Origin: Thermoleophilia bacterium | GTDB taxonomy: Bacteria > Actinomycetota > Thermoleophilia > UBA2241 | DNA: 64,000 nt | Reading direction: 5' to 3' | Assembly: GCA_040776965.1 (NCBI GenBank) | Contig: JAXGZO010000001.1 | Coordinates: forward strand, 396,675 to 460,674 | Shown: in pieces, positions 9,104-35,622 of the stretch | How positions within the stretch are numbered: position 1 is the first letter of the stretch | How the letters are laid out: every line of letters starts with the position of its first letter | Made by a program: the position numbers and the translations under genes | The notes under the pieces: generated by a model | Told to the model about the DNA's origin: nothing | Seen by the model: only the letters and a program-made list of their open reading frames with translations | Databases searched by the model: none

Positions 9104-9120
9104 GGTCAGCTAAGGATAAA

Positions 9121-9150
9121 GGGGCGGGGTGCCTGCGGCGCCGCCCCCTC
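9121..9150 (-). terminator. GC-rich hairpin downstream of pilin gene A
   Basis: GGGCGGGGTGCCTGCGGCGCCGCCCC is an imperfect inverted repeat lying between the rarA start and the pilin A stop. Confidence 0.4.
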
Positions 9151-9172: not shown

Positions 9173-9622
9173 TTAGGGCACGGTGATGATGGCGTTAGGG
9201 GAGGGGCCGGCCGCATTTTTACCCCAACCGGTGAGGCTGAAGACCTTATCCGTCACGCCGGTTCGCTTATAGAAGTAGTTGCCCTGCCAATCTGTTGCGG
9301 TAGTGGTAGGGGTAGGCTGCTTCCGGATCATAAAAGTGCTCTTCTTCCAGGGATTCTTAGGCCAGGGGCTCACGTAGTCGCCAACAGCTTTATCGTTCTC
9401 GACATCGCTTGACTCCGGGTAGATATCGTTGTTGTCCACCGCGAAGGTCTGCACGCCTATCTGAATGCTGTGCACCCCCGACTTCACCGCGGCCTCTTTG
9501 GCCTTATCGCGCTGCCCGAGGAACATAGGGATGGCGATGGCGCTGAGGATGCCGATGATGATGATAACCACCAGCAGCTCGATGAGGGTGAACCCGGCTT
9601 TGCCCTTTGTGAACCGTTTCAT
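9173..9622 (-). CDS. Type IV pilin paralog A (class III signal peptide; pilin/pseudopilin N-terminal methylation motif)
   Basis: MKRFTKGKAGFTLIELLVVIIIIGILSAIAIPMFLGQRDKAKEAAVKSGVHSIQ, with a G|F cleavage site and Glu at +5. It has the central YVSPWPKNPW motif and the C-terminal IITVP. Confidence 0.85.
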   Translation of the reverse strand: MKRFTKGKAGFTLIELLVVIIIIGILSAIAIPMFLGQRDKAKEAAVKSGVHSIQIGVQTFAVDNNDIYPESSDVENDKAVGDYVSPWPKNPWKKSTFMIRKQPTPTTTATDWQGNYFYKRTGVTDKVFSLTGWGKNAAGPSPNAIITVP

Positions 9623-9937
9623 GAATGCTCTCCTCTCCCGCAGCGCTTAATGCCCTCGCCTGCGAAAGTTTTATTCTCGTATCTGCATCTTCCTTCGGCA
9701 GAACCGGCGAAAACCTAAAGGCGCACGGGGCCTGAAGGGCGGGCGGCGTAGCCCACCCGCATCTTTACTCTACCCGGCTTTCCTTAATTCGGACGGAGGG
9801 CGAAGCGATTCCCGCTGGCATACAGCGAAACGCGCATCGAAACGGCGAGAGCTGAGCGTAACCTGAGGGCCAGGGCACGGACACATGCAGGCCCCTATCC
9901 TTATCCCGTAAGGCGAGGGTAAGGGGCTAATAGCACA

Positions 9938-9975
9938 AAGGGGCGGGGCGCCGTAGGCACCCCGCCCCTTTGTGT
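9938..9975. terminator. Bidirectional Rho-independent terminator-like hairpin
   Basis: AAAGGGGCGGGGCGCCGTAGGCACCCCGCCCCTTTGTG has a roughly 11-bp stem flanked by an A-tract on one side and a T-tract on the other. Confidence 0.55.
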
Positions 9976-9978
9976 GTT

Positions 9979-10011
9979 CTCGCCCGCCGCGGCTACGCCG
10001 GGCGGCGAGGG
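9979..10011. repeat. Pilin-associated conserved GC-rich 3' stem-loop repeat (copy 1 of at least 4 clear copies)
   Basis: CTCGCCCGCCGCGGCTACGCCGGGCGGCGAGGG lies immediately 3' of the pilin B stop. Near-identical copies occur at 10638-10668, 12481-12511 and 18234-18265 (reverse complement, 3' of pilin I). Degenerate versions occur 3' of pilins D and G. Confidence 0.7.
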
Positions 10012-10023
10012 CTGATGTGCAGA

Positions 10024-10533
10024 TTAGGGGACGGTGATAACAGGGGCAGTCTTGCCGTAGCCGATGAGCTGGAAGCCCGTGTTACTATCTTTGGCTACAT
10101 AGTAAAAGTTGCCCCTCGCTGCATCCGCATTGGCCTCCCTGCTCGGCGTGACATTAACCATCCCCTCATTCGTCCACGGGTTCTTCGGCCACGGGCTCAC
10201 ATAAGTGGAGCCGTACATGACTCGCGAAGGAGGTAGGGAAATGAGAGCGACCTCAGAGATGCTCGCCACGGTGAGAACTCCGGTCGCGGTGTCGTCTTCC
10301 GTAGCCTCTTTCTCCTGCAACTCATCGGGGTAGAGGTCGTTGTTATCCACCGCATACGACTGCACGCCCACCTGAAGGTTGTGGATGCCCGACTTCACCG
10401 CGGCCTCTTTTGCCTTATCCCGCTGCCCGAGGAACATAGGGATAGCGATGGCGCTGAGAATGCCGATGATGATGATAACCACCAGCAGCTCGATGAGGGT
10501 GAAGCCCCCCTGGCCCTTTGCGAAGCGCTTCAT
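10024..10533 (-). CDS. Type IV pilin paralog B
   Basis: The start is MKRFAKGQGGFTLIELLVVIIIIGILSAIAIPMFLGQRDKAKEAAVKSGIHNLQ. It has YVSPWPKNPW and ends VITVP. Track ORF 10024..10578 includes a spurious 5' extension. Confidence 0.85.
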   Translation of the reverse strand: MKRFAKGQGGFTLIELLVVIIIIGILSAIAIPMFLGQRDKAKEAAVKSGIHNLQVGVQSYAVDNNDLYPDELQEKEATEDDTATGVLTVASISEVALISLPPSRVMYGSTYVSPWPKNPWTNEGMVNVTPSREANADAARGNFYYVAKDSNTGFQLIGYGKTAPVITVP

Positions 10534-10680
10534 TGGTACTCTCCTTTTTCTTTCGCTCACGGAGCTCGGTGCCCTCACCTGCGAGAGCGTTGTGCTGTGC
10601 CTAGGTCTTTTTTCGGCAGAACGAGCGAAGAACTAAAGGGGCGGGGCGGCTACGCCGGGCGGCGAGGGCTAAGGTCTGGC

Positions 10681-11118
10681 TTAGGGGACGGTGATGATGG
10701 CCGCCTTCTCTGTCTTGCCGCAGCCCCAGAGGGTGAAGCTGTCAGTACCCGTGGTGTAGGCGAAGTCACCCTTCGTGAGGGAAGCCGTCGTATTTCCTTT
10801 ATTAGCCATGGGCGAGCTCTCCGTCCATGGATTCTTCGGCCACGGGCTCACGTAGGTTGTGCCGAGGGCGCCGGTGGACGTAACCGGATCAGATTCATCA
10901 TTACCAGCAGTGGGATAAGCATCATTATTATCAACTGCATACGACTGCACGCCCACCTGGATGTTGTGGATGCCCGACTTCACCGCGGCCTCTTTGGCCT
11001 TATCGCGCTGCCCGAGGAACATAGGGATGGCGATGGCGCTGAGGATGCCGATGATGATGATGACCACCAGCAGCTCGATGAGGGTGAAGCCCCCCTGGCC
11101 CTTTGCGAAACGCTTCAT
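10681..11118 (-). CDS. Type IV pilin paralog C
   Basis: The ATG at 11118 gives MKRFAKGQGGFTLIELLVV...SPWPKNPW...AIITVP. RBS GAGAGGAGTATCAC lies upstream. Confidence 0.85.
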   Translation of the reverse strand: MKRFAKGQGGFTLIELLVVIIIIGILSAIAIPMFLGQRDKAKEAAVKSGIHNIQVGVQSYAVDNNDAYPTAGNDESDPVTSTGALGTTYVSPWPKNPWTESSPMANKGNTTASLTKGDFAYTTGTDSFTLWGCGKTEKAAIITVP

Positions 11119-11330
11119 GTGATACTCCTCTCGCTCTTGTGGCGTGGTAGCGTCTCTCGTCTTCTGCGAGAGCTCCCTTTTTCGATCTCTGACGCTTCTT
11201 TCGGCAGAACGGGTGAAAAACTGTAGAGAACGTTGTCTCTCCCGCTCTGCCCGCCTCATCGTTTTACCCTCAGCTCACGGATTTGCGGGGCGAGACGGGG
11301 CTTCTGGCGGGCGGCGAGCTCGCACCGCAC

Positions 11331-11801
11331 TTACTGACCGACGGTGATGAGGCCGGTGCTACCGTCTTTTCCGTACCCGGTGAGCGTATAGCTCGTCCTC
11401 TCCGAGCTGACGGTATAGACAAAGTGGCCTCGCCTATGTTGAGGCTCCAGTGGCGTCTTCATATTCATCATCACCTCGTCAGCCCAGGGATTCATCGGCC
11501 ACGGGCTGACGTAGGAAGCGCCGACGTTGAGCCCTTCCAAAAAGCTCGGCAAGTCCGAATTCCCGTCCTCATCCCTGTCGTACATCACTTCCTTCGGATA
11601 CAAGTCGTTGTTATCCACCGCGTACGAATGTATGCCTACCTGGAGGCTGTGGATGCCCGACTTAACCGCAGCCTCTTTGGCCTTATCCCTCTGCCCGAGG
11701 AACATGGGAATAGCGATGGCGCTGAGGATGCCGATGATGATGATAACCACCAGCAGCTCGATGAGGGTGAAGCCCCCCTGGCCCTTACTGAAACGCTTCA
11801 T
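11331..11801 (-). CDS. Type IV pilin paralog D
   Basis: MKRFSKGQGGFTLIELLVVIIIIGILSAIAIPMFLGQRDKAKEAAVKSGIHSLQ...SPWPMNPW...LITVGQ. Confidence 0.85.
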   Translation of the reverse strand: MKRFSKGQGGFTLIELLVVIIIIGILSAIAIPMFLGQRDKAKEAAVKSGIHSLQVGIHSYAVDNNDLYPKEVMYDRDEDGNSDLPSFLEGLNVGASYVSPWPMNPWADEVMMNMKTPLEPQHRRGHFVYTVSSERTSYTLTGYGKDGSTGLITVGQ

Positions 11802-11848
11802 ATACCTCTCCCTCCCGCTGATACCATAACCCCGTTGAGATGAGAGCC

Positions 11849-12334
11849 CTACGGAACGGTGATGATCCAGCTGACTCCACTGCCAACCGAAACCGTGCCG
11901 CCCCCCCGAAGCTTGTATGCCTCCTCTGGATCGGGCGAACCCGCGAACCAGTACATGTAGTTGCCCTTATGTGACTTCGCCGCACCCGTCCACCCAAGCT
12001 CGCTCGCCATGCCTGGCATGCTGCCATCATTGGGATAGCGGGCCATCTTCGCACCCGTCCAGGGGTTTTTGGGCCACGGGCTGACGTACTTAGCCACCGA
12101 CCCGGTAGGCTGCACCGCCATCGGGGAGGGGTACTTATCGTCGTTGTCTGCGGCGGCGGCCTGCACGCCCACCTGGATGTGGTGGATACCGGCCTTAACC
12201 GCCGTGTTGCGCGCCCGCTGCCGCTGCACGAGGAACATGGGTACGGCGATCGCCGTGAGGATGCCGATGATGATGGTGACCAGGAGCAGCTCGATGAGGC
12301 TGAAGCCCCCCTGGCCTTTTGCACGCCTCCTCAC
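11849..12334 (-). CDS. Type IV pilin paralog E (most divergent N-terminus; GTG start)
   Basis: V/MRRRAKGQGGFSLIELLLVTIIIGILTAIAVPMFLVQRQRARNTAVKAGIHHIQ...SPWPKNPW...WIITVP. RBS AAGAGGAGG is present. The gene lies only 47 bp downstream of the paralog D start. Confidence 0.8.
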   Translation of the reverse strand: MRRRAKGQGGFSLIELLLVTIIIGILTAIAVPMFLVQRQRARNTAVKAGIHHIQVGVQAAAADNDDKYPSPMAVQPTGSVAKYVSPWPKNPWTGAKMARYPNDGSMPGMASELGWTGAAKSHKGNYMYWFAGSPDPEEAYKLRGGGTVSVGSGVSWIITVP

Positions 12335-12439
12335 AACTACCTCCTCTTATCCAAACGGAGCTCCCGTAAACGCCGCATTATTACTCTACCCAGCTTCGCA
12401 GAGCTCGGACACTCGTACACAATGCCACCAACGCACCAG

Positions 12440-12469
12440 TGGGCGGGGCACCTGCGGCACCCCGCCCCC
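12440..12469. terminator. GC-rich terminator-like hairpin
   Basis: GGGCGGGGCACCTGCGGCACCCCGCCCC is a near-perfect inverted repeat. Confidence 0.5.
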
Positions 12470-12513
12470 TCGCGTTGCCCCTCGCCCGCCGCAGCTACGC
12501 CGGGCGGCGAGCC

Positions 12514-12960
12514 TTAGCTGCCTGCCGGCCCTACTGGCACTGATTCCGTCTTGGGGGTACCGACCGTGATGATGGCGGTACCGGCGGTTTTGCCGTAACC
12601 GGTGAGGAGGAAGGTACCGGAGCCCAGGGTGTAGCTGTACTGGCCCTTGCCTGTACCCGCGGTCATCAGCTTATTGTCCCACGGGTTCTTAGGCCACGGA
12701 TTCACGAGGTTGCCGACGGCGCCGGTGCTTGCAACCTCTGTTGCTGCCGGGTACGTATCGTTGTTGTCCACCGCGTACGTCTGTATGCCCACCTGAATGT
12801 TGTGGATGTTGGACTTCACTGCGGCCTCTTTGGCCTTATCGCGCTGCCCGAGGAACATGGGGATGGCGATGGCGCTGAGCTTGCGAGAGCCTTATGGAGT
12901 ACCTGGATCTTCTTTCGGCAAAACGGGCGAGGAGCTAAAGCAGCTGCACCCTCCATGGAC
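12514..12960 (-). pseudogene. 5'-truncated type IV pilin paralog F (an internal deletion removed the start codon, signal peptide and N-terminal helix; the leader is retained)
   Basis: The conserved leader box CTCTCGCAAG is joined directly to ...CTCAGCGCCATCGCCATCCCC (LSAIAIP). The first in-frame start is an internal ATG giving MFLGQRDKAKEAAVKSNIHNIQ..NPWPKNPW...AIITVGTPK. The conserved upstream motif CGTTTTGCCGAAAGAAG is still present at 12908-12925. Confidence 0.7.
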
Positions 12961-13015
12961 CGCTGGGGGCCTGGATGTGGTGATGATGCCCCGGACGGGC
13001 TACGGCGCGGAAGAC

Positions 13016-13453
13016 TTAGGGTTTCTGACCGAATTCGATCACTTTGCTCTTATTATATCCGTAGCCGCAGAGGGAGAAGCCCACCCTCGTACTGGCTGTT
13101 TGCGGGATGTAGTTGTAGTGACCCCGAACCGCTACCCCAGGAGGAACAGGTATATTCGCCATCGGCTTACCATCCCGCCAGGGGTCTGTTGGCCACGGGC
13201 TGACGAGCTTGCCAACCGCTCCGGTGCTCGCAACGTCGACCTTCGGCGGGTACAAATCCTTGTTGTCCACAGCGTACGTCTGCACCCCCACGTAGATGTG
13301 ATGAACAGCCGTCTTAACGGCGGCGTCTCTCGCCCTCTCCTTCTGCCTGAGATACAGGGGCGTAGCGATGGCGGCCAGGATGCCGATGATGATGATGACC
13401 ACGAGCAGCTCAATGAGGGTGAAGCCCCTCTGACCTTTTGTGACGCGCTTCAT
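13016..13453 (-). CDS. Type IV pilin paralog G
   Basis: The ATG at 13453 gives MKRVTKGQRGFTLIELLVVIIIIGILAAIATPLYLRQKERARDAAVKTAVHHIY...SPWPTDPW. Confidence 0.8.
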   Translation of the reverse strand: MKRVTKGQRGFTLIELLVVIIIIGILAAIATPLYLRQKERARDAAVKTAVHHIYVGVQTYAVDNKDLYPPKVDVASTGAVGKLVSPWPTDPWRDGKPMANIPVPPGVAVRGHYNYIPQTASTRVGFSLCGYGYNKSKVIEFGQKP

Positions 13454-13612
13454 ATGCCTCTCCCTCCTGCTGATACCGCAACCCCCGTCGCCACGAAAGC
13501 TTGTTGAGGTGTCTCTTTCTTCTTTCGGCGAATCCACGGAGAAGTTGAGCGACCTCGGCAGGCCCCCGTCGTCTCCGCGTAAACCGCACCGCCTCCACGC
13601 CAGCAGCGTGCG

Positions 13613-14000
13613 CTAGGGAACGGTGATAACGCCCCCGGTGGAGCCGACGCCGATGAGGACGTAAGAGGTGGGCGTTGCGAGGGGCTTTGGGTTGTACACA
13701 AACGTGCCTTTGTTCGGCTTACCCCCCGACCCCGGGATATTAGTGCCATTGTTATAGACCGTGGTGGAGCGCCCCATGGGCACATGCGGAACGTGCCCCC
13801 ATGGATTCTCAGGCCAGGGGCTGACGAGCTTGCCGACTTTTGCAGTCTTCGCAACCTCAGCTTGTACAGGGTAGGTATCGTTGTTCTCGACCGCGTACGT
13901 GTGGATGCCCACCTGAATACTGTGGATGCCCGACTTAACTGCGGCGTCCTTTGCCTTCTCCCTCTGCCCGAAGAACAGAGGGATGGCGATGGCGGCGAGG
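13613..14000 (-). pseudogene. N-terminally truncated type IV pilin paralog H (no start codon; the break falls inside the conserved N-terminal helix)
   Basis: The open frame after a TAG reads ...SFIGILAAIAIPLFFGQREKAKDAAVKSGIHSIQVGIHTYAVENND...SPWPENPW...GVITVP. There is no ATG/GTG/TTG before the internal GTG at 13912 (the track ORF start). The upstream DNA is the rmlA promoter region. Confidence 0.65.
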
Positions 14001-14085
14001 ATGCCAATGAAGCTGAATGCGCGGCAAATGGGCCTCTTTTCGGGGGAGCGATGCTATACTCCATGCAAACTCCAGCGAGGTCGCC

Positions 14086-15150
14086 ATGAAGGGACTCATC
14101 TTGAGCGGCGGCGCGGGCACACGCCTACGCCCCATTACGCACACCTCGGCCAAGCAGCTCGTACCCGTGGCCAACAAGCCGGTGCTCTTTTACGGCCTGG
14201 AGGCCATGTACGCCGCGGGCATCCGCGAGGTCGGCATCGTCGTGGGCAGCACCCGCGCGGAGATCGAGGAGGCGGTCGGCGACGGCAGCCGCTTCGGGCT
14301 CAGCGTCACGTACCTCCCGCAGGAGGCGCCGCTGGGCCTCGCCCACGCAGTGCTCATCAGCGAGGCCTTTCTCGGCGACGAGCCCTTTGTGATGTACCTC
14401 GGCGACAACCTCCTCAAAGAGGGCATAGAGCCGTTCGTGCGTGCTTTTAACGAGCATCGCCCGGATTCACTGATCTTACTGCAGCGGGTCGACGACCCCA
14501 GCTCGTACGGCATCGCGGAGCTCGACGCGGAGGGCCGCGTCACCCAGCTCGTGGAGAAGCCAGCCGAGCCGCGCAGCGACCTCGCGCTGGTGGGCGTGTA
14601 CCTCTTCACCCCGGCCATCTTCGAGAGCGTTAAGGCCATCTCGCCCTCCGCCCGCGGCGAGCTCGAGATAACCGACGCCATTCAGCACCTCATCGAGCGC
14701 GGCCTCCGCGTCGACCCCCACACGGTCACGGGCTGGTGGAAAGACACGGGCAAGCTGGAGGACATGCTCGAGGCCAACCGCCTCATCCTTAACACCATCA
14801 CTCGCGACCTGCGTGGCACCGTTATCGATAGCCTCATTGAGGACGCGGTACAGGTGGGCGAGGGGAGCGTGCTCGAGCGCTGCAGCGTGCGCGGCCCAGT
14901 GGTCATAGGCCGCAACTGCCGCATAACCGACGCCTACGTCGGCCCCTACACGGCCATCGGCGACGACGTAGTGGTGGAGCGCGCCGAGCTGGAGCACTCG
15001 ATCCTCCTCGAGGAGAGCTGCATCCGCCGCCTCGGCGCACGCCTCACCGACAGCCTCGTCGGCCGAAACTGCACGATAGAACACAGCGACGCGCCGCCGG
15101 TAGCGTACCGGTTTATGATCGGCGACTCCTGCCAGATCGGCCTCCCCTGA
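14086..15150 (+). CDS. rmlA: Glucose-1-phosphate thymidylyltransferase (long form with a C-terminal beta-helix)
   Basis: MKGLILSGGAGTRLRPITHTSAKQLVPVANKPVLFYGLE is the canonical RmlA N-terminus. Track ORF 14017 is 5'-extended. Confidence 0.9.
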   Translation: MKGLILSGGAGTRLRPITHTSAKQLVPVANKPVLFYGLEAMYAAGIREVGIVVGSTRAEIEEAVGDGSRFGLSVTYLPQEAPLGLAHAVLISEAFLGDEPFVMYLGDNLLKEGIEPFVRAFNEHRPDSLILLQRVDDPSSYGIAELDAEGRVTQLVEKPAEPRSDLALVGVYLFTPAIFESVKAISPSARGELEITDAIQHLIERGLRVDPHTVTGWWKDTGKLEDMLEANRLILNTITRDLRGTVIDSLIEDAVQVGEGSVLERCSVRGPVVIGRNCRITDAYVGPYTAIGDDVVVERAELEHSILLEESCIRRLGARLTDSLVGRNCTIEHSDAPPVAYRFMIGDSCQIGLP

Positions 15151-15175
15151 GCGCATCGCACGAGAGAGGAGCCCC

Positions 15176-15664
15176 ATGATCCACGGCGTGATGACGAAGA
15201 ACCTCCGAGTGGTCCCCGACGAACGCGGACGCCTCATGGAGTGCCTCCGCAACGACGACGACCTCTTTATTCAGTTCGGCCAGCTCTACATGACGACCAC
15301 CTACCCCGGCGTCGTTAAAGGCTGGCACCTCCACGACGCACAGTGGGACAACATCGTCTGTGTTAAGGGCATGCTCAAACTCGTGTTGTGCGACGGCCGC
15401 GGGGCCGAAGGCGACGCGGCCGCTCCCGGCCACGCGGCGAGCCCCACCGCCGGCGAGATTCAAGAGTTCTTTATCGGCGAGTACAAGCCCATGCTCGTCC
15501 GCGTACCACCGGGCGTGTGGCACGGCTGGAAGTGCGTGAGCGTTGAGGAGGCCTACGTCGTCAACGCCCCCACCGAGACCTATAAGTACGACACGCCCGA
15601 CCAGCGCGAGCTGCCGCACAACACGCCCGCTATTAACTACGACTGGGGCGTCCGACTGCGCTAG
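15176..15664 (+). CDS. rmlC: dTDP-4-dehydrorhamnose 3,5-epimerase (cupin)
   Basis: 162 aa. RmlC-like motifs are present (RGRLMECLR...GWHLH...). It sits between rmlA and rmlD. Confidence 0.75.
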   Translation: MIHGVMTKNLRVVPDERGRLMECLRNDDDLFIQFGQLYMTTTYPGVVKGWHLHDAQWDNIVCVKGMLKLVLCDGRGAEGDAAAPGHAASPTAGEIQEFFIGEYKPMLVRVPPGVWHGWKCVSVEEAYVVNAPTETYKYDTPDQRELPHNTPAINYDWGVRLR

Positions 15665-15684
15665 CGCGCGGCCGGAGCACGCAC

Positions 15685-16560
15685 ATGCTGCGCTGGTTTA
15701 TCACGGGCGGCGGCGGCCAGCTCGCCACCGCGTTCGCCGAGCGACTCACCGGCGAGGTCTTTCTCAGCCGCGAGGAGACCCTCGACATACGCAACGCGGC
15801 GGCCGTGGCCGCGGCGATCCACAGCTTCGCCCCCCACGTCGTGCTGCACACCGCCGCCTTCACCGACGTGGACGGCGCGGAGGCAACCTCCGCGGCCGCG
15901 GAGGTTAATGTAGACGGCACGCGCAACATCGTTAACGCCGTGCGCGGCAGCTCCACGGCGGTCATCTCCTTCAGCACCGACTACGTCTTCGACGGCACCA
16001 AAGGCGCTCCGTACGTGGAGAGCGACGCGCCGAGGCCGCTCAACGCCTACGGCCGCACCAAGTTGCTCAGCGAGGAGATCGTGCTGAGCTGGGCGCACGG
16101 CACCGTTATACGCACCTCGTGGCTCTTCAGCGAGACCGGCCGCAACTTCGTAAAGACGATCCTCGCCGCCGGCCGCCAAAAGGCCGCGGCGGGCGAGCCC
16201 CTTCGCGTCGTCGACGACCAGGTGGGCTCCCCCACGTACGCCGGCCACCTCGCCGCCGGCGTTGAGGAGGCCGTCCTCGGCGACCTCGCGCCCGGCCTCT
16301 ACCACATGGCGGGCGGCGGCTGGTGCTCGTGGCGAACCTTCGCCGCCCAGATCCTCCACGACGCCGGCATCGCCGCAGAGGTCCTGCCCATCACCACGGC
16401 CGAGCTGGGCCGACCGGCGGCGCGCCCGGCGTTCTCCGCCCTTATCAGCGAGCGCGGCGCCCCGCAGCTGCCGCACTGGCGAGAGGGCACCGCCCTCGCG
16501 GTCCAGGCCCTCACCAAGGATGACCGACGCCCCCCACACACCGAGGAGACGCACCCATGA
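15685..16560 (+). CDS. rmlD: dTDP-4-dehydrorhamnose reductase
   Basis: 291 aa. MLRWFITGGGGQLATAF...STDYVFDG is the RmlD signature. Confidence 0.85.
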   Translation: MLRWFITGGGGQLATAFAERLTGEVFLSREETLDIRNAAAVAAAIHSFAPHVVLHTAAFTDVDGAEATSAAAEVNVDGTRNIVNAVRGSSTAVISFSTDYVFDGTKGAPYVESDAPRPLNAYGRTKLLSEEIVLSWAHGTVIRTSWLFSETGRNFVKTILAAGRQKAAAGEPLRVVDDQVGSPTYAGHLAAGVEEAVLGDLAPGLYHMAGGGWCSWRTFAAQILHDAGIAAEVLPITTAELGRPAARPAFSALISERGAPQLPHWREGTALAVQALTKDDRRPPHTEETHP

Positions 16561-17564
16561 AGCTCGTGGTCACCGGCGGCGCCGGGTTTATAGGCTCCAA
16601 CTTCATCCTCCACATGCTGAGGCGCCACGCCGACATCGAGATCGTCAATCTCGACAAGCTCACCTACGCCGGCAACCTCGAGAACCTCCGCGAGGTGGAG
16701 GCCGACGAGCGCTACTCCTTCGTTAAGGGCGACATCTGCGACGCGGCGCTCGTGCGCCGGGCGCTGCGCGGCGCGGACGCCGTCGTTAACTTCGCCGCGG
16801 AGACCCACGTCGACCGCTCCATCAGCGGGCCACAAGACTTCATCCGCACCGACGTACTGGGCACGCAGACCCTCCTGGAGGCGGTGCGCGAGTTCGGCAT
16901 CGCCCGCTACCTGCAAATCAGCACCGACGAGGTGTACGGCTCCACGGAGGTGGGCTCCTTCGGCGAGCACGACCCGCTGAACCCCTCGAGCCCCTACTCG
17001 GCCAGCAAAGCCGCCGGCGACCTGCTCGTGCTGGCTTACGCCACCACGTACGGCACGCCGGCGCTCATCACCCGCAGCTCCAATAATTACGGGCCGCGGC
17101 AGTACCCCGAAAAGCTCGTGCCGCTCTTTATCACCAACGCGGTCGACGACCTGGCGCTCCCGGTGTACGGCGACGGCCAGCAAATACGCGACTGGATCTA
17201 CGTCGACGACAACTGCGCCGGCATCGAGGCCGTGCTCCTCAACGGCACCGACGGCGAAATTTACAACATCGGGGGCGGCAACGAGGTCGCCAACCTCACC
17301 ATCACCGGGGAGATCCTGCGCCTGCTCGAGAAGGGCGACGAGCTCATCCGCTACGTCGCCGACAGACCCGGGCACGACCGCCGCTACTCCATTAGCTGCG
17401 CCAAGGCCCACGCCCTCGGCTGGCGGCCGGAGGTGCCCTTCGCGGTCGGCCTCGAGCGCACCGTGGCGTGGTACCGCGACAACCCGCAGTGGTGGCGCCC
17501 CATTAAGTCGGGGGAGTGGCGAGCGTACTACGAGGCGCAGTACCCCGAGGTGGGGCGAGCATAA
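16557..17564 (+). CDS. rmlB: dTDP-glucose 4,6-dehydratase
   Basis: MKLVVTGGAGFIGSNF; YSASKAAGDLL (the YxxxK of extended SDRs). Its start overlaps the rmlD stop (ATGA). Confidence 0.9.
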   Translation: MKLVVTGGAGFIGSNFILHMLRRHADIEIVNLDKLTYAGNLENLREVEADERYSFVKGDICDAALVRRALRGADAVVNFAAETHVDRSISGPQDFIRTDVLGTQTLLEAVREFGIARYLQISTDEVYGSTEVGSFGEHDPLNPSSPYSASKAAGDLLVLAYATTYGTPALITRSSNNYGPRQYPEKLVPLFITNAVDDLALPVYGDGQQIRDWIYVDDNCAGIEAVLLNGTDGEIYNIGGGNEVANLTITGEILRLLEKGDELIRYVADRPGHDRRYSISCAKAHALGWRPEVPFAVGLERTVAWYRDNPQWWRPIKSGEWRAYYEAQYPEVGRA

Positions 17565-17788
17565 CCGAGTGAGTGAGGGCGGGGCGAAGAAGCGGCGCTC
17601 GCTCAGCTCTGCTTTTGAATCCGAGTACATTCCCCTGTCCGAACTTCGGGAAGATGGGCAGAGTAAGAGAGACAACGTTGCCTACAGTTTTTCACCCGTT
17701 CTGCCGAAAGAAGCGTCAGAGATCAAAAAGGGGGCTCTCGCACAAGACGAGAGACGCTACCACGCCACAAGAGCGAGAGGAGTATCAC

Positions 17789-18220
17789 ATGAAGCGTTTC
17801 GCAAAGGGCCAGGGGGGTTTCACCCTCATCGAGCTGCTGGTGGTTATCATCATCATCGGCATCCTCAGCGCCATCGCTATCCCTATGTTCCTCGGGCAGC
17901 GCGATAAGGCCAAAGAGGCCGCGATGAAGTCCGGTATCCACAGCATCCAGGTGGGCGTGCAGAGTTATGCCGTGGACAACAACGATGTGTATCCGTCGGC
18001 TGCAGCAAGCGGTGGCGATATTCTTGCTGCAGATAAAACCAAAGTCCAAGCGCTCGTGAGCCCGTGGCCGAACAACCCGTGGAGTACTAGCAGCGCTGCG
18101 ATGACGGGCACGGCAGCCGGGGCGAAGGGCGACTATACCTACGCGACGGCAACCGACAGCTTTAGTCTTAAAGGCTGGGGTAAAAGTAGCACCACCGCCC
18201 CCATCATCACCGTCCCCTAA
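17789..18220 (+). CDS. Type IV pilin paralog I (only copy on the + strand)
   Basis: MKRFAKGQGGFTLIELLVVIIIIGILSAIAIPMFLGQRDKAKEAAMKSGIHSIQ...SPWPNNPW...PIITVP. Its 5' leader and first roughly 190 nt are about 95% identical to the reverse complement of paralog C. Confidence 0.85.
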   Translation: MKRFAKGQGGFTLIELLVVIIIIGILSAIAIPMFLGQRDKAKEAAMKSGIHSIQVGVQSYAVDNNDVYPSAAASGGDILAADKTKVQALVSPWPNNPWSTSSAAMTGTAAGAKGDYTYATATDSFSLKGWGKSSTTAPIITVP

Positions 18221-18295
18221 GCAACACCGCAAGCCTCGCCGCCCGGCGTAGCCGCGGCGGGCGAGAGCACGCGAAGGGGCCGCAGTAAGCCCCTC

Positions 18296-18345
18296 GCAAG
18301 CAAAAGGGTCGAGTTCGCAACTGCGAACTCGACCCTTTTGCTTGC
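18296..18345. terminator. Perfect 23-bp-arm palindrome (bidirectional terminator candidate)
   Basis: GCAAGCAAAAGGGTCGAGTTCGC-AACT-GCGAACTCGACCCTTTTGCTTGC. Both arms are exact reverse complements. Confidence 0.5.
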
Positions 18346-18450
18346 GCTCTCGAAGACGGGCGTATACGCCGAGTGGCTCACTCAGTGCGTTGCCTCGGGA
18401 GGGGAAGAGCCGAGGGGTGCCCCTCAAAGCTACCCCCCTGCGAGGAAAAA

Positions 18451-31220: not shown

Positions 31221-31395
31221 GGACCCTCCCTAAAAGTAGGCGGCAGCTACAAGCGATCTTAGCAGAGCGCGGATTCAACGCATAGAGAGAGAAGGGGCCC
31301 GCAAAGGCACCCTCCCGCTTGGGCCACACGACGTCCGCGTTGTAGACTGCTTCTTGACCCCTTGGGCTCTCGGAGAGCGAGCGAATGGAGTTGCT

Positions 31396-34300
31396 GTGAC
31401 CGAGCCTGCAGCCTCAAAGCCGACCCCCGCGGTCGCGCTCACGATCGACGGCGAACACGTAAGCGTCCCCCCGGGGAGCACGATCCTCGAAGCCGCACGT
31501 ACCCTCGGCATCGAGATCCCCACCCTCTGCCAGCACGACACCCTTAAACCCGCGTCGGCGTGCCGCCTCTGCGTGGTCGAGGTCGCCGGTCGCCGCGACC
31601 CCGTCACCGCCTGCGACACGTACGTGGCGGAGGGCATGATCATCACCACTCACAACGAGGAGCTTCGCGCTATCCGCCAGCTCAACCTCGAGCTGCTGTT
31701 CAGCGACCACACCTCGTACTGCACGCCGCCCTGCCGCGACGCCTGCCCCACGCACATCAAGATCCCCGAGTTTCTCGAGCACATCGCGGCCCGCGACTAC
31801 GAGGCCGGCATGCGGGTGCTGCGCGAGGACCTGCCCTTCCCCGGCATCCTCGGCCGCGTCTGCCCGCAGCCCTGCCAGACGCCCTGCCGCCGCCAGCTCG
31901 TGGACAGCGGCATCACGATCTGCCAGCTCCACCGCTTTATGGCCGACAGCACGCGCGCCGGCGAACAACTCGGCGAGCTGCTCCTGCCCACCGAGCAAAA
32001 GCCGGAGAGCGGCAAGCGCATCGCTATCGTCGGCGGCGGCCCCGCAGGGCTCTCCGCCGCCTTCTACTCCCGGCTCGAGGGCCACGCCGTCAAGATCTTC
32101 GAGGCGCAGCCCAAGCCCGGCGGCATGCTGCGCTACGGCATCCCGAGCTACCGCCTTCCGCGCGCGATCCTTGAGGAGGAGATCAACCTCCTCTGGCGCA
32201 TGGGCGTAGAGATCGAGACCGGCGTGCGCCTCGGCACCCACCTCCACCTCGCCGACCTGCGAGAGGAGTACGACGCCGTCTTCCTCGCCCTCGGCGCCTT
32301 TAACGCGAACGCCATGCGCTGCGAGGGCGAAGACGCCCCCGGTGTGGTCACCGCTATCGACTTCCTCGGCGACCTGGAGCGCAACGGCACCGTCGCCTGC
32401 GGCAACAAGGTCACCGTCATCGGCGGCGGCTTTACCGCCATGGACGCCTGCCGCACCGCCGTCCGCCTCGGCGCCGAGGAGGTCACCTGCCTCTACCGGC
32501 GCTCGCGCAAGGAGATGCCAGCCCATCACACCGAGGTGGACGAGGCCGAGGAGGAGGGCGTGCGCCTCGAGCTGCAGGTCGCGCCGCTGCGCGTGCTCAC
32601 CGACGAGGCGGGCGACGTGTGCGGCATCGAGATGATCCGCATGGAGCTCGGCGAGCCAGATGCCTCCGGCCGCCGGCGCCCCGTCCCCATGGAGGGCTCC
32701 GAGTTCGTCATCGAGTGCGACCAAGTTATCAGCGCCATCGGCCAGTACCCCAAGCTCGACGGCGCGGGCGAGGCCGAGGGCATCGAGCACACCCGCTGGC
32801 GCACCATCCAGGTCGACGACTGGACGCTCCAAACCGCCCTGCCTAACGTGTTCGCCGGCGGCGACGCCGTCCTGGGCGCACAGACGGTTGTGCAGGCTAT
32901 CGCGCAGGGCAAGAAGGCCGCCTGGAGCATCGCGGCCTTCCTTGAGGGCGACGATCTGCAGGCCATCTCGGCCCACCTCCAGGGGCTCCACGACGCGCCC
33001 TTCCTCGAGGCGCTCCGCACCAAGGGCGAGCTCGAGCGCCGCGTCCGCCGACTGGCCGAGATCCCGCCGGTCTTTATCGACATCAACACCGGGATTACAC
33101 AGACAAGCGCCCCGGCCACCATGCCCAAGCTCAGCCCTGAGGAGCGCCGCACCAACTTCGAGCAAATAGAGCTCGGGTTCGCCGAGGACGACGCCGTCCG
33201 CGGCGCCGAGCTCTGCCTGCAGTGCACCTGCGAGGCACACGGCGCCTGCGACCTGCAGCGCTACGGTATTGAGTACGAGGTCGCGCAAAACCGGTTCCAG
33301 GGCACTGAGGCCAGGGCGTACGAGGCCTACGAGACACAGCCGCTCATAGCCTACGACCCCAAACGCTGCATCCTCTGCGGCAAGTGCGTTAACGTCTGCC
33401 GCGACGTGCAGGGCACCGAGGCCATTAACTTCTCCCAGCGCGGCTTCAGCGCCAAGGTCGCCGCCTCCTTCGACAAGGAGCTCGACACGTCGTTCTGCCG
33501 CTTCTGCGGCCAGTGCGTCGACATTTGCCCAACCGGCGCGCTCACCAACCGGCAGCTCACGAGGGTTCGCTCCTGGGAGCGCACCAAGGTCCGCACCACC
33601 TGCCCCTTCTGCGGCGTGGGCTGCAACTTCGACCTCAACGTCGCCGAGGGCAAGGTCGTCGGCGTCACCGCAGCCTACGACGCGCCGGTCAACCAGGGCT
33701 CGCTCTGCGTCAAGGGCCGCTTCCACACCGACCTCATCGAGAGCGAGGAGCGCATCACCACACCGCTGATTAAGCGCAACGGTGAGTGGGAGCCGGCCAC
33801 CTGGGAGGAGGCCCTCGACTTCACCGCCGAGCGGCTCCTGCAGATCAAGGCGAAGCACGGCCCCGACTCCATCGCCGTCCTCAGCTCGGCGCGCTGCACC
33901 AACGAGGAGAACTACCTCCTCCAACGCCTCACGAGGGCGGGGCTCAACACCAACTCCATAGACCATTGTGCGCGTACCTGACACGCTCCTACGGTGGCCG
34001 GTCTGGCCGCCACGTTAGGTTCAGGCGCGATGACCAACTCGATCGGCGAGATCCCGCACAACGACGTCCTCTTCATCATCGGGTCCAACGCCACTGAGGC
34101 GCACCCCATTATCGGCAACAAGATGAAGCAGGCGGCCGCCGGCGGCGCCAAGCTCATCGTCGTCGACCCACGACGCACCGAGCTCGCCGAGCGGGCACAC
34201 CTCTGGATCCGCATTAAGCCGGGCACCGACAACGCCCTCATTAACGGCATCCTGCACACCATCATCACCAACGGCTGGCACGACCAGGCCTACATCGACG

Positions 34301-35622
34301 AGCGCTGCGAGGGCTTTAACAACCTCTGGAAGACCGTCGAGGGCTACACGGCGGAGTACTCCGCGGCCATCACCGGCGTGCCACCGGAGCAGATCCGCGA
34401 GGCGGCCGAGCTCTACGCCACCACCGAGCGCGCCGGCATCTTCTACACGCTCGGCATCACCGAGCACACCACCGGCACGGCCAACGTCATGAACCTCGCC
34501 AACCTGGCCATGGTCACCGGGCACATCGGCGTGGAGTTCGCGGGCATCAACCCCCTGCGCGGGCAAAACAACGTGCAGGGCGCGTGCGACATGGGCGCCC
34601 TGCCCAACTCGCTGCCCGGCTACCCGAGCGTCGGCGACCCCTTGGCACGGGCGCGGTTCGAAGAGGTCTACGGCGTCGCCCTCCCCGAGAAGATGGGCCT
34701 CCGCATACCCGAGATGCTCGACCTGGCGGTTCACGGGCACCTCAAGGCCCTGTACGTTATGGGCGAGGACCCGGCGCTCACCGACGCCGACGCCAACCAC
34801 GTGCGCAAGGCACTCGAGAGCGTCGAGTTCCTCGTAGCGCAAAACATCTTTATGACGGAGACGGCCAAGTACGCCGACGTCTTCCTCCCGGCGGCGCTCT
34901 ACGCCGAGAAGGAGGGCACCTTTACCAACACCGAGCGTCGGGTGCAGCGCGTCCGCAAGGCGGTCGACCCGCCCGGCGACTGCCGGCCCGACTGGCGCAT
35001 CATCCTCGACCTCAGCGAGCGACTCGGGCACCCCATGCCCTTCTCGTCACCCGAGGAGGTCTTCGAGGAGGTCCGCCGCGTTATCCCCGCCTTCGCCGGC
35101 ATCTCCTACGCGCGCATTGAGGAGGAGGGCGGGCTGCAGTGGCCGTGCCCGAGCGAGGATCACCCGGGCACGCAGTACCTGCACAAAGGGCGATTCACCC
35201 GCGGCAAGGGGCTGCTGCAAGGCATCCCCTTCGAGCCGCCGGCCGAGCTCACCGACGAGGAGTACCCACTACTGCTCACCACCGGGCGCATGCTCTACCA
35301 GTACAACATCTCCACGCGCATCTCAAAGAGCCTCGACGGGCTTCGCCCGCACGAGCTCGCCGAGGTCAACCCGGCGGACGCCGAGCGCTACGGGTTCGCC
35401 GACGGCGAGCTGATCCGCGTGAGCTCTCGCCGCGGCTCCATCACGAGCCGCATCGTCGTCACCGACAAAGTCGCACCGGGCACCATCTTCATGACCTTCC
35501 ACTACAAGGAGTCGCCGGTTAACGAGCTCACCAACTCGGCCGCCGACCCCGTCACCATGACGGCGGAGTTTAAGGTGTGCGCCGTCAGGGTGGAGAAGAT
35601 CGACCAGGTCGTGCCGGCGTAG
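31396..35622 (+). CDS. fdhA: Selenocysteine-containing formate dehydrogenase alpha subunit fused to N-terminal [2Fe-2S], GltD-like NAD(P)H/FAD and 2x[4Fe-4S] domains; the in-frame TGA at 33979..33981 is read as Sec
   Basis: The frame runs continuously across the TGA: ...[30 protein letters not shown], matching the E. coli FdhF Sec context CARVUHGPSVAGL. Upstream there is a 2Fe-2S ferredoxin-like domain, a GltD-like domain (IAIVGGGPAGLSAAFY) and 2x CxxCxxCxxxCP. The TTCPFCGVGCNFDL region looks like the molybdopterin-oxidoreductase Fe4S4 domain. Downstream is a full MopB/MGD domain. The track splits the gene into 31354..33981 and 33994..35622. The start is GTG 31396 after GGAG. Confidence 0.85.
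33982..34020 (+). promoter_or_regulatory. Bacterial SECIS-like stem-loop immediately 3' of the Sec UGA
   Basis: UGA CAC GCU CCU ACG GUG GCC GGU CUG GCC GCC ACG UUA GG. The apical GGUCUG loop is flanked by GGCC/GGCC and resembles the E. coli fdhF SECIS apical loop (GCAGGUCUGCAC). Confidence 0.6.

What the first reader, a model, noticed from the sequence alone, without database searches (positions are those of the whole stretch)
9173..18265. Tandem array of nine type IV pilin paralogs built as cassettes with conserved ends and hypervariable middles
Nine pilin genes lie within about 9 kb: A to H on the minus strand and I on the plus strand. All share near-identical prepilin N-termini, a strictly conserved central SPWPxNPW motif and a C-terminal ITVP. 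The two segments between these conserved blocks are highly divergent in length and sequence. Conservation extends to the DNA level in the 5' leaders and first roughly 190 nt and in a 3' stem-loop repeat. This means whole cassettes have been duplicated and homogenised at their ends while the middles diversified. The pattern resembles antigenic or adhesin-variation loci more than a normal single major pilin with a few minor pilins.
Basis: seen in the sequence. Interest (0 to 1): 0.8.

Follow-up and report, generated by a model that had tools for sequence, protein, structure and literature searches.

The report
Expanded tandem array of pilin paralogs
A 9-kb stretch carries nine copies of one type IV pilin gene (seven intact, two missing their 5' ends); this is an unusually large but otherwise ordinary pilin gene family with limited gene conversion at the 5' ends, and nothing here shows a programmed antigenic-variation system.

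Summary
The nine pilin-family copies are real and lie at the stated coordinates. Seven are complete: A, B, C, D, E, G and I each have a Shine-Dalgarno site, a start codon and a prepilin G|F(T/S)LIEL site. F and H lack the start codon and the first ~21-25 codons, so not all copies share the prepilin N-terminus. The motif is [SN]PWPx[ND]PW, and only six copies end in ITVP.

The block pattern (conserved α1 helix, WPxNPW, β-strand blocks) is the signature of a very large family. In relatives that family sits as two tandem genes inside a pilB-pilT-pilC-sigma-pilin-pilin-pilD-pilMNO cluster. The array here is an orphan, lineage-specific expansion, with at least two further paralogs elsewhere in the genome and an rmlACDB operon lying between H and I.

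There is evidence of recombination. C and I share a ~310-nt tract, leader plus 5' coding sequence, at 95% identity with sharp edges. D and G share a proximal leader. B, C, F and I share a 3' hairpin.

Divergence is nevertheless old: N-terminal pS is 0.22-0.55 and C-terminal pS is near saturation. The variable regions share no exact run longer than chance. No recombinase was seen among the window ORFs examined.

Verdict: a multi-isoform pilin repertoire, not a demonstrated variation switch. Interest is moderate to low.

The parts
9173..9622 (-). Pilin A, intact, 149 aa, ends ITVP
   Evidence: ORF and translation. Pfam N_methyl E = 3e-8. SD GGAGAGGAG lies upstream.
10024..10533 (-). Pilin B, intact, 169 aa, longest αβ-loop (42 aa)
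10681..11118 (-). Pilin C, intact, 145 aa (= database protein P0001)
11331..11801 (-). Pilin D, intact, 156 aa, ends ITVGQ. Starts 47 nt after E's stop and has no leader box, so it is probably co-transcribed with E.
11849..12334 (-). Pilin E, intact, 161 aa, GTG start, divergent N-terminus (GFSLIELLLVT)
12514..12888 (-). Pilin F, 5'-truncated. The leader, up to CTCTCGCA, is fused directly to codon ~26 (LSAIAIPMF). There is no SD or start codon. The 3' end is extended (ITVG + 14 aa).
13016..13453 (-). Pilin G, intact, 145 aa, divergent, ends VIEFGQKP
13613..14010 (-). Pilin H, 5'-truncated. Homology starts at codon ~22 (IGILAAIAIP). The first possible start codon is GTG at V55. Its 5' end lies 76 nt from the rmlA start.
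14086..17564 (+). rmlA-rmlC-rmlD-rmlB operon (dTDP-L-rhamnose synthesis), lying between H and I
   Evidence: Pfam NTP_transferase, dTDP_sugar_isom, RmlD_sub_bind and GDP_Man_Dehyd/Epimerase. No rml genes lie beside pilins in the 46 other loci held when that search was run.
17789..18220 (+). Pilin I, intact, 143 aa, the only copy on the plus strand (= P0002)
17654..17962 (+). I side of the C/I shared tract (leader -135 to codon 58). The partner in C is 10945-11253 on the minus strand.
   Evidence: 16 differences in 309 nt, with sharp boundaries on both sides
10945..11253 (-). C side of the C/I shared tract
9689..9704 (-). 16-nt leader box (consensus GTTCTGCCGAAAGAAG), copy upstream of A. Other copies: 10607-10622 (B), 11195-11210 (C), 12909-12924 (F), 13519-13534 (G), 17698-17713 (I, plus strand).
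   Evidence: 7 matches in the window against 0.5 expected, 6 of them in pilin leaders
9932..10009 (-). 3' hairpin 1 (CTCGCCGCCCGGCGTAGCCGCGGCGGGCGAG) plus hairpin 2 (GGGGCGGGG..CCCCGCCCCTTT) after B. The same pair follows F at 12432-12511. Hairpin 2 alone follows A (9113-9148). Hairpin 1 follows I (18231-18265). A fused half-copy follows C (10636-10666).
   Evidence: Repeat families D5, D6, D10 and I8, I11, I12. Folds: -66 kcal/mol, z = -6.9 after B; -60 kcal/mol after F.
18295..18346 (+). Perfect 25-bp hairpin downstream of I, a likely terminator that closes the locus
   Evidence: (I21)

Best explanation
This is a lineage-specific, orphan expansion of the major-pilin gene of a monoderm-type type IVa pilus system. 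It holds seven expressible pilin isoforms and two 5'-truncated relics. The assembly machine is probably encoded elsewhere in the genome.

Shown here:
- All seven intact copies have a Shine-Dalgarno site, a start codon and a class III signal peptide (K-G-Q-G-G|F-T-L-I-E-L), followed by a long α1 helix and a small PilA4/GspG-like head.
- Homologues in other genomes sit as two tandem genes between pilB-pilT-pilC-sigma and pilD, minor pilins and pilMNO.

Inferred:
- Each isoform is processed by the prepilin peptidase and polymerised by the same machine, because the part that must fit that machine and the filament core (residues 1-69, WPxNPW, the β-strand blocks) is held constant.
- The αβ-loop and the loop after WPxNPW, probably surface-exposed as in solved pilins, are free to vary in length (14-42 and ~42-64 codons) and sequence. 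This would give pili with different surfaces, either as alternative filaments or as mixed filaments.
- Conservation of the 5' part is mainly purifying selection, topped up by occasional gene conversion between copies. C/I is the clear case.
- Most cassettes are separate transcription units (own leader, own terminator hairpins), so choice of isoform would be made by transcription or translation, not by DNA rearrangement.
- The likely benefit is a range of adhesion specificities and/or escape from pilus-binding phages. The rml operon may supply rhamnose for pilin or envelope glycans; that link is pure inference.
For: Identity as type IV pilins:
- Pfam N_methyl hits in 7 of 9 copies and weak T2SSG hits.
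- PDB profile hits to the α1 helix of geopilin, M. xanthus PilA and S. sanguinis PilE1.
- AlphaFold model pLDDT 84, with helix 13-63 and three C-terminal strands.

Family and normal context:
- More than 6800 homologues at E < 1e-5.
- In an alignment of 109 homologues the N-terminal blocks and the central W-P are invariant or nearly so, and the same C-terminal blocks recur in the consensus.
- Homologues P0007, P0036 and P0082 lie in pilB-pilT-pilC-sigma-pilin-pilin-ABC-pilD-minor pilins-pilMNO clusters.

Expansion:
- Among the loci fetched, family-type copies carrying the WPxNPW motif number at most two in tandem.
- The window has nine copies, and the same 1.66-Mb contig encodes two more, P0003 and P0020.
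- No pilus assembly genes were found among the larger window ORFs that were scanned.

Expressibility: SD and start codons are present in all seven intact copies, with terminator hairpins after A, B, F and I.

Conversion:
- The C/I tract.
- A proximal leader shared by D and G.
- Exact runs of 38-89 nt among A, B, C, D and I, and between F and A, C and I, in the 5' part.
- N-terminal pS averages 0.38 within the genome against 0.54 to other genomes. Two-gene loci elsewhere show within-genome N-terminal pS as low as 0.07-0.15.

Old divergence of the heads: C-terminal halves are as close to pilins of other organisms (40-55%) as to each other (33-54%). Same-codon frequency there is 0.30-0.73, mostly 0.45-0.7, against a saturation baseline of 0.46.
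Against: - No expression data exist, so some intact copies could be silent.
- The assembly genes of this genome were not seen, because only the 64-kb window is available.
- dS in the head region is saturated and the alignment there is unreliable. Diversifying selection cannot be shown (dN/dS 0.2-0.8).
- Head-region pN (0.30-0.54) is about equal to N-terminal pS. For most pairs the data cannot separate 'recent expansion plus fast head evolution' from 'old paralogues plus 5' conversion'.
- F and H keep open reading frames despite truncation. That is slightly unexpected for old pseudogenes.
Confidence: 0.7

Rival explanations
1. Programmed pilin variation of the Neisseria pilE/pilS type. Copies exchange variable head segments by RecA-dependent gene conversion, using the conserved 5' block and the 3' hairpin-1 repeat as homology anchors. 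The 5'-truncated F and H serve as silent donors. The pilus surface therefore changes at high frequency, for example to escape phages.
For: - Two promoter-distal or start-less copies (F, H) still have open head-domain reading frames.
- F is flanked by a 38-nt exact run on the 5' side and an 18-nt exact run in hairpin 1 on the 3' side, shared with A, C and I and with B, C and I respectively.
- The conserved 3' element recalls the Sma/Cla repeat (from memory).
- The C/I tract shows that conversion does happen here.
Against: - Seven of nine copies are complete genes with their own SD, and most have their own leader and terminator, so there is no single expression locus.
- No variable-region segment is shared between any two copies beyond 11 nt, equal to the shuffled null.
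- The closest head to F is P0020, at only 61%.
- N-terminal pS of 0.22-0.55 means exchange is rare on an evolutionary scale.
- Only one G4-like motif lies in the array, which is not an enrichment.
- H shares at most 20-nt exact runs with any copy, and 9 nt with I.
Confidence: 0.12
2. The locus is a largely redundant or decaying duplication product. One or two copies, perhaps those beside the assembly genes elsewhere, form the pilus. The rest are drifting duplicates on their way to pseudogenes like F and H.
For: - Two copies are already truncated.
- GC3 of the head regions (0.65-0.76) is below that of the N-segments (0.80-0.88) and of neighbouring genes (0.84-0.92), consistent with relaxed selection.
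- Head-region pN is about equal to N-terminal pS.
Against: - All seven full-length copies keep intact signal peptides, E+5, the WPxNPW motif, the β-strand blocks and strong SD sites, despite synonymous divergence of 0.3-0.5 or more.
- N-segment dN/dS is ~0.05-0.4.
- No internal stops or frameshifts occur in any copy.
Confidence: 0.12
3. These are pseudopilins of a type II secretion-like or competence-type filament rather than subunits of a surface pilus.
Against: - All GspG scores fall below the 88.85-bit cutoff.
- Homologues sit in clusters with a second T2SSE-family ATPase of PilT-like size beside pilB, and with PilM, PilN and PilO, typical of type IVa pili.
- The best structural match is the Thermus pilus subunit PilA4.
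Confidence: 0.05

Closest known systems
The same pilin family in its usual setting: two tandem pilin genes inside a pilB-pilT-pilC-sigma-pilin-pilin-ABC-pilD-pilMNO cluster. Seen in Thermoleophilia and other MAGs, e.g. GCA_040769125.1 (locus L046) and loci L048 and L050.
   Same: - 57-68% protein identity, with the same N-terminal 70 residues, WPxNPW, GxYxY, FxLxGxGK and ITVP blocks.
- Tandem paralogues whose N-termini are more alike within a genome than between genomes.
   Different: - Nine copies here rather than two.
- The array lies outside any assembly cluster seen in the window, between rarA and an NlpC/P60-SLH gene.
- All copies resemble the 'type 1' paralogue and none resembles 'type 2' (KGGVHNIELGI).
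- Two copies are truncated.
- An rml operon is embedded in the array.
Haloferax volcanii adhesion pilins PilA1-PilA6 (PMC4371748)
   Same: Several full-length pilins share an almost completely conserved hydrophobic N-terminal domain but have different heads. They are not co-located with the assembly genes. Each can act as major pilin, and subsets are used under different conditions.
   Different: The Haloferax system is archaeal, uses a PibD-type signal peptide and has six copies. Function here is untested.
Streptococcus sanguinis PilE1/PilE2 heteropolymeric type IV pilus (PDB 8pfb; PMC10628169)
   Same: A monoderm type IVa pilus built from tandem-encoded, N-terminally near-identical major pilins that co-assemble. 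8pfb appears in both the sequence and the fold searches.
   Different: S. sanguinis has two very similar pilins. Here there are seven intact pilins with heads 33-54% identical.
Thermus thermophilus PilA4 and PilA5: two filament types from one machine (PDB 6xxd, 6xxe)
   Different: Only 15% identity. The Thermus genes are not a tandem array of close paralogues.
Neisseria pilE/pilS pilin antigenic variation
   Same: Clustered pilin copies with conserved and variable segments. Some copies lack the 5' end. A conserved repeat lies 3' of several copies. There is evidence of gene conversion.
   Different: - Most copies here are complete and separately expressible.
- No shared minicassettes.
- No G4 element linked to an expression locus.
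- Divergence is old.
- The organism is probably environmental, judged only from the MAG sources of its nearest homologues.

Membership tests
Type IV pilin (class III signal peptide protein) | Short basic leader ending in Gly, then Phe+1, Glu+5 and a ~20-residue hydrophobic α1N | tested here: met
   A, B, C, D, E, G and I read M(K/R)R..KGQGG|F(T/S)LIELL.V.IIIGIL. Pfam N_methyl and TIGR02532 score above cutoff. F and H lack this segment.
Type IV pilin (class III signal peptide protein) | Lollipop fold: a long N-terminal helix packed on a C-terminal antiparallel β-sheet | tested here: met
Type IVa pilus major pilin (as opposed to minor pilin) | Orthology to the pilin gene(s) placed beside pilB/pilT/pilC in the assembly cluster; abundance in the filament | tested here: inconclusive
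   Homologues at 57-68% identity occupy that position in L046, L048 and L050. The window's own assembly cluster and the filament composition are unknown.
GspG, type II secretion major pseudopilin (TIGR01710) | Score above the curated equivalog cutoff (88.85 bits) | tested here: not met
   Scores are 22-59 bits for all nine copies.
Neisseria-type pilE/pilS antigenic variation | One expressed locus plus silent copies that lack the promoter and N-terminal coding region | tested here: not met
   Seven of nine copies are complete with SD and start codon. Only F and H are truncated.
Neisseria-type pilE/pilS antigenic variation | Variable segments of one copy found verbatim in other copies (minicassette transfer) | tested here: not met
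   The longest exact run shared in variable regions is 11 nt. The codon-shuffled null has mean 10.5 and 95th percentile 13.
Neisseria-type pilE/pilS antigenic variation | G-quadruplex-forming sequence upstream of the expression locus | tested here: not met
   One G4-like motif at 12460-12487, between truncated F and E. There are 8 in the whole window, so no enrichment.
Neisseria-type pilE/pilS antigenic variation | High-frequency non-reciprocal change in a population | not testable with these tools
   No close relative or population data were found.
Invertible pilin switch (Moraxella tfpQ/I with Piv) | Site-specific invertase and inverted pilin segments with a shared crossover site | tested here: not met
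   No recombinase was found among the larger window ORFs scanned against Pfam. The inverted neighbours H and I share at most 9 identical nt in the 5' part.
WhiG/FliA-type (flagellar-clade sigma) promoter in front of pilin genes, as in Rubrobacter (PMC8325347) | -35 TAAA, ~15 nt spacer, -10 GCCGATAA, at most 2 mismatches, with a transcription start just downstream | tested here: inconclusive
   - The leader box contains GCCGAAAG, GCCGAAAA or GCCGAAGG (1-3 mismatches), with a poor -35 except in G (TCAA-N15).
- L046 has TAAAG-N15-GCCGAAC at -73.
- Only 5 of 49 pilin upstream regions in other loci have GCCGA[AT], against a 17% background.
- The sigma gene next to pilins in L046 scores best as SigB/F/G-like, not WhiG.
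- No transcription-start data exist.

The most novel reading that the evidence does not exclude
The array is a working pilin-variation reservoir in a probably environmental (non-pathogen) monoderm bacterium. Full and 5'-truncated cassettes would exchange head domains by gene conversion, anchored on the conserved 5' block and the 3' hairpin repeat. That would give population-level pilus surface diversity, for example against pilus-specific phages, possibly combined with rhamnose glycosylation from the embedded rml operon.
Probability: 0.12. Interest if true: 0.7.

Novelty: new member of a known kind. Interest (0 to 1): 0.35.

Why it matters
If several of these isoforms are made, one pilus machine could display up to seven (eleven counting the other two paralogues) different surfaces. 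That would be a simple route to varied adhesion or phage escape in a poorly studied, probably actinobacterial lineage. The locus also gives a clean natural example of 5'-restricted gene conversion between pilin paralogues. As it stands it extends a known theme, multiple major pilins with a common N-terminus, rather than revealing a new mechanism.

Tried and rejected
1. H/I inversion switch. I considered that recombination between truncated H and inverted I could flip the rml block and activate H. I rejected it: H and I share at most 9 identical nt in the 5' part, are 69% identical overall there, and no invertase was found.

2. Riboswitch or structured leader. There is no Rfam hit at gathering or E ≤ 1 in the leaders. 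RNAalifold consensus energy is -2.5 kcal/mol with almost no covariation.

3. WhiG-type promoter as a family-wide feature. This is not supported outside the window and is kept only as a lead.

4. G4-driven variation. G4-like motifs are not enriched.

5. Finding close relatives or strain variants.
   - The genome-contig scan gave at best 57-81% N-terminal matches in other lineages.
   - The look-up of encoding contigs has no record of P0001 or P0003.
   - The listing of cluster members gave no accession or name.

7. rml-pilin linkage in relatives is absent.

8. Searching with the head domain alone returned only 13 weak hits in the representative library. It cannot size the family, but it revealed multi-module secreted proteins.

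9. The first literature search, on gene conversion in pilin paralogues, was uninformative.

Full report
**What is there**

ORF listing, translation and alignment confirm nine members of one pilin family between 9173 and 18220.

| Copy | Coordinates | Strand |
|---|---|---|
| A | 9173-9622 | - |
| B | 10024-10533 | - |
| C | 10681-11118 | - |
| D | 11331-11801 | - |
| E | 11849-12334 | - |
| F | 12514-~12888 | - |
| G | 13016-13453 | - |
| H | 13613-~14010 | - |
| I | 17789-18220 | + |

Seven copies (A, B, C, D, E, G, I) are complete. Each has a strong Shine-Dalgarno sequence and a start codon. Each has a basic leader ending in Gly, followed by F(T/S)LIEL and a hydrophobic helix, and each scores above cutoff for Pfam N_methyl and TIGR02532.

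F and H are 5'-truncated.
- In F, the leader DNA runs up to CTCTCGCA and is then fused directly to codon ~26 (LSAIAIPMF).
- In H, homology begins at codon ~22, only 76 nt from the rmlA start, and the first usable start codon is at V55.

An rmlA-rmlC-rmlD-rmlB operon (14086-17564, plus strand) lies between H and I. The flanks are rarA/mgsA on one side and an NlpC/P60-SLH gene, spoIID and a pst/phoU cluster on the other. No pilus assembly gene turned up among the larger window ORFs that were scanned against Pfam.

The repeat structure is real.
- The 5' 206-278 nt of I match C, B, A and D at 87-92%.
- A 16-nt box, GTTCTGCCGAAAGAAG, lies 76-87 nt upstream of the start codons of A, B, C, G and I, and in the equivalent leader of truncated F. 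Chance expectation is 0.5.
- Two GC-rich hairpins recur downstream. Hairpin 1 follows B, F and I, with a half-copy after C. Hairpin 2 follows A, B and F.

Four statements are too strong.
- 'All share near-identical N-termini' fails for F and H. E and G are only ~65-70% identical to the rest over the first 69 residues.
- The motif is [SN]PWPx[ND]PW, not strictly SPWPxNPW.
- ITVP ends only six copies.
- D and E lack the leader box, and D starts 47 nt after E's stop, so E and D are probably one operon.

**What the proteins are**

Profile search of solved structures matches only the N-terminal helix: geopilin, M. xanthus PilA, S. sanguinis PilE1, PulG and Thermus PilA4/PilA5.

The family is very large, with more than 6800 hits at E < 1e-5. 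The alignment of 109 homologues shows two things.
- Invariant or nearly invariant across organisms: the first ~69 residues, the central W-P, and single Gly, Tyr and Phe positions in the C-terminal strands.
- Recurring in the consensus: the full WPxNPW, GxYxY, FxLxGxGK and ITVP blocks.

'Conserved ends and variable middle' is therefore the structural signature of the family. The first variable stretch is the αβ-loop. The second is the loop between the WPxNPW motif and the C-terminal strands.

**Normal genomic setting**

Three homologues on long contigs (P0007 in GCA_040769125.1, P0036 and P0082) all sit in the same cluster. The order is alaS-ruvX-yceG-aroE-pilB-pilT-pilC-sigma factor-pilin-pilin-ABC transporter-pilD-minor pilins-pilM-pilN-pilO.

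In the 45 loci from species-representative genomes, mostly Thermoleophilia MAGs, copies carrying the family's WPxNPW motif number at most two in tandem. The two types there are recognisably orthologous between genomes: KEGVHSIQ versus KGGVHNIELGI.

The window differs in several ways.
- It has nine copies, all of the first type.
- The array lies outside any assembly cluster seen in the window.
- At least two more paralogues (P0003, P0020) lie on the same 1.66-Mb contig but not in the window.
- rml genes are not linked to pilins in any of the 46 other loci held when that search was run.

**Evolution of the copies**

Per-segment Nei-Gojobori estimates:

| Segment | pS | pN |
|---|---|---|
| Codons 1-69 | 0.22-0.55 | 0.02-0.24 |
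| WPxNPW to end | 0.52-0.76 (near saturation) | 0.30-0.54 |

Further comparisons:
- Among identical amino acids, the same codon is used in 76-85% of N-terminal positions within the group A, B, C, D, I.
- In the C-terminal part the figure is 0.30-0.73, mostly 45-70%, against a codon-usage baseline of 46%.
- A max-chi-square scan on synonymous codons puts a change-point near codon 58-68 in ten pairs, nine of them among A, B, C, D and I. Permutation p is 0.001-0.04, for 36 pairs tested without multiple-test correction.

The clearest case is C versus I.

| Region | Differences |
|---|---|
| Upstream 80 nt | 45 of 80 |
| Tract -135 to +174 | 16 of 309 |
| Next 33 nt (still conserved at protein level) | 11 of 33 |

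Fisher p for the tract against the next 33 nt is 6e-6. This is a recombination or conversion tract covering leader plus 5' coding sequence. It lies between two copies that are inverted relative to each other and 6.5 kb apart.

Leaders are mosaic too. D and G share a proximal leader, C and I share the whole leader, and A and B have their own.

Concerted evolution of the N-terminus is not peculiar to this genome. In other genomes the two orthologous pilin types have within-genome N-terminal pS of 0.07-0.5, whereas window copies compared with other genomes average 0.54.

The heads of the window copies are as similar to pilins of other organisms (40-55%) as to each other (33-54%).

Caveats:
- Head-region dS is saturated and the alignment there is poor.
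- Head pN is about equal to N-terminal pS.
- For most pairs I therefore cannot separate 'old paralogues with 5' conversion' from 'younger duplicates with very fast head evolution'.
- Positive selection cannot be shown.

**Is it a variation system?**

Against:
- Seven copies are self-contained genes.
- Variable regions share no exact run longer than 11 nt, no better than codon-shuffled controls. Nothing suggests recent transfer of head segments.
- The nearest head to truncated F is P0020, at 61%.
- E, G and H share at most 20-nt runs with the others, and H shares 9 nt with its inverted neighbour I. This rules out the inversion-switch idea I considered.
- No recombinase was found among the ORFs examined.
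- Only one G4-like motif lies in the array, against 8 in 64 kb.

For:
- F and H keep open head reading frames.
- F is bracketed by 38-nt (5') and 18-nt (3' hairpin) exact matches to intact copies.
- Conversion demonstrably occurs between C and I.

I give this rival about 0.12.

**Regulation (a lead only)**

The leader box contains GCCGAAAG, which resembles the -10 element GCCGATAA of flagellar-clade sigma factors. In Rubrobacter, WhiG-type promoters with mapped start sites lie inside the type IV pilus cluster (PMC8325347). A group-3 sigma gene sits immediately upstream of the pilins in relatives.

The support is weak.
- The -35 matches are poor except in G.
- The motif is not enriched upstream of family pilins in other loci: 5 of 49, against a 17% background.
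- The neighbouring sigma scores best as SigB/F/G-like.
- No conserved RNA structure or Rfam family is present in the leaders.

The box may simply be inherited with the duplicated cassette.

**Best explanation**

This is an orphan, lineage-specific expansion of the major pilin gene of a monoderm-type type IVa pilus. It gives seven expressible isoforms with a common assembly-competent core and different surface loops, plus two truncated relics.

The common 5' part is maintained by purifying selection and occasional gene conversion. Isoform choice is probably made at the expression level. Confidence is about 0.7.

The closest analogues are:
- Haloferax volcanii PilA1-6, with a conserved H-domain, each able to form pili (PMC4371748).
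- S. sanguinis PilE1/PilE2 heteropolymeric pili (PMC10628169; PDB 8pfb).
- Thermus PilA4/PilA5.

**Verdict**

This is a new member of a known kind, with interest of about 0.35.

Noticed in passing
window 31354-35622 (+), TGA at 33979-33981: The formate-dehydrogenase-like molybdopterin enzyme is split into two ORFs by an in-frame TGA. The context is ...NSIDHCART*HAPTVAGLAATLGSGAMTNS, the classical FdhA selenocysteine position. It is probably one selenoprotein.
   Followed up: partly
proteins P0121, P0122, P0125, P0126 (found with window 10684-10911, minus strand): The pilin head module (helix end + WPxNPW + GDFxYT + YTLT) also occurs as 3-5 tandem modules. These are in 280-650-aa proteins from other organisms. 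The two full-length ones read (P0121, P0122) begin with an ordinary N-terminal signal-like hydrophobic segment, not a prepilin leader.
   Followed up: partly
window 14086-17564 (+): A complete dTDP-rhamnose operon (rmlACDB) is inserted between truncated pilin H and inverted pilin I. Its upstream region, which has a TGCTATACT extended -10-like sequence, replaces H's 5' end. This linkage is absent from 46 other pilin loci. Several heads are Ser/Thr-rich, for example A (PTPTTTAT) and I (STSSAAMTGTAAG).
   Followed up: partly
loci L046 8924-9679, L048 8846-9586, L050 854-1594: A ~250-aa group-3 sigma factor gene (best model SigB/F/G, below cutoff) sits between pilC and the pilin genes in each of the three family clusters examined.
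   Followed up: partly
window 9757-9794 and 12373-12410 (-): A second shared upstream element...GGGTAGAGTAA(A/T)(G/A)ATGCGG, precedes A and E, with degenerate copies before I and C. A similar GCGG(C/T)AGAGTA element lies ~70 nt upstream of the first pilin in many Thermoleophilia loci. It may be the main promoter -10 (D11, 21, 31).
   Followed up: partly
window 36643-38856 (-): A 737-aa predicted secreted protein made of about a dozen 'GG(K/T)(S/T)W' repeats that look BNR/Ycf48-like by eye; no family search was run on it.
   Followed up: no
window 12460-12487 (-): The only G4-like motif in the array (GGGCGAGGGGCAACGCGAGGGGGCGGGG) overlaps the hairpin 1/hairpin 2 junction between truncated F and E. 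There are 8 such motifs in the 64-kb window, so this is not an enrichment.
   Followed up: yes
window 10001-14000: The pilin array has lower G+C (0.58-0.61) than the rest of the window (0.62-0.72). GC3 of the head regions (0.65-0.76) is below that of the N-segments (0.80-0.88) and of neighbouring genes.
   Followed up: partly
codons 8-10 of B, C, D, E, I (e.g. window 17809-17817): A G6 run (CAGGGGGGC/T) lies in the leader-peptide coding region of five copies. It is too short to be a convincing slipped-strand phase-variation tract.
   Followed up: no
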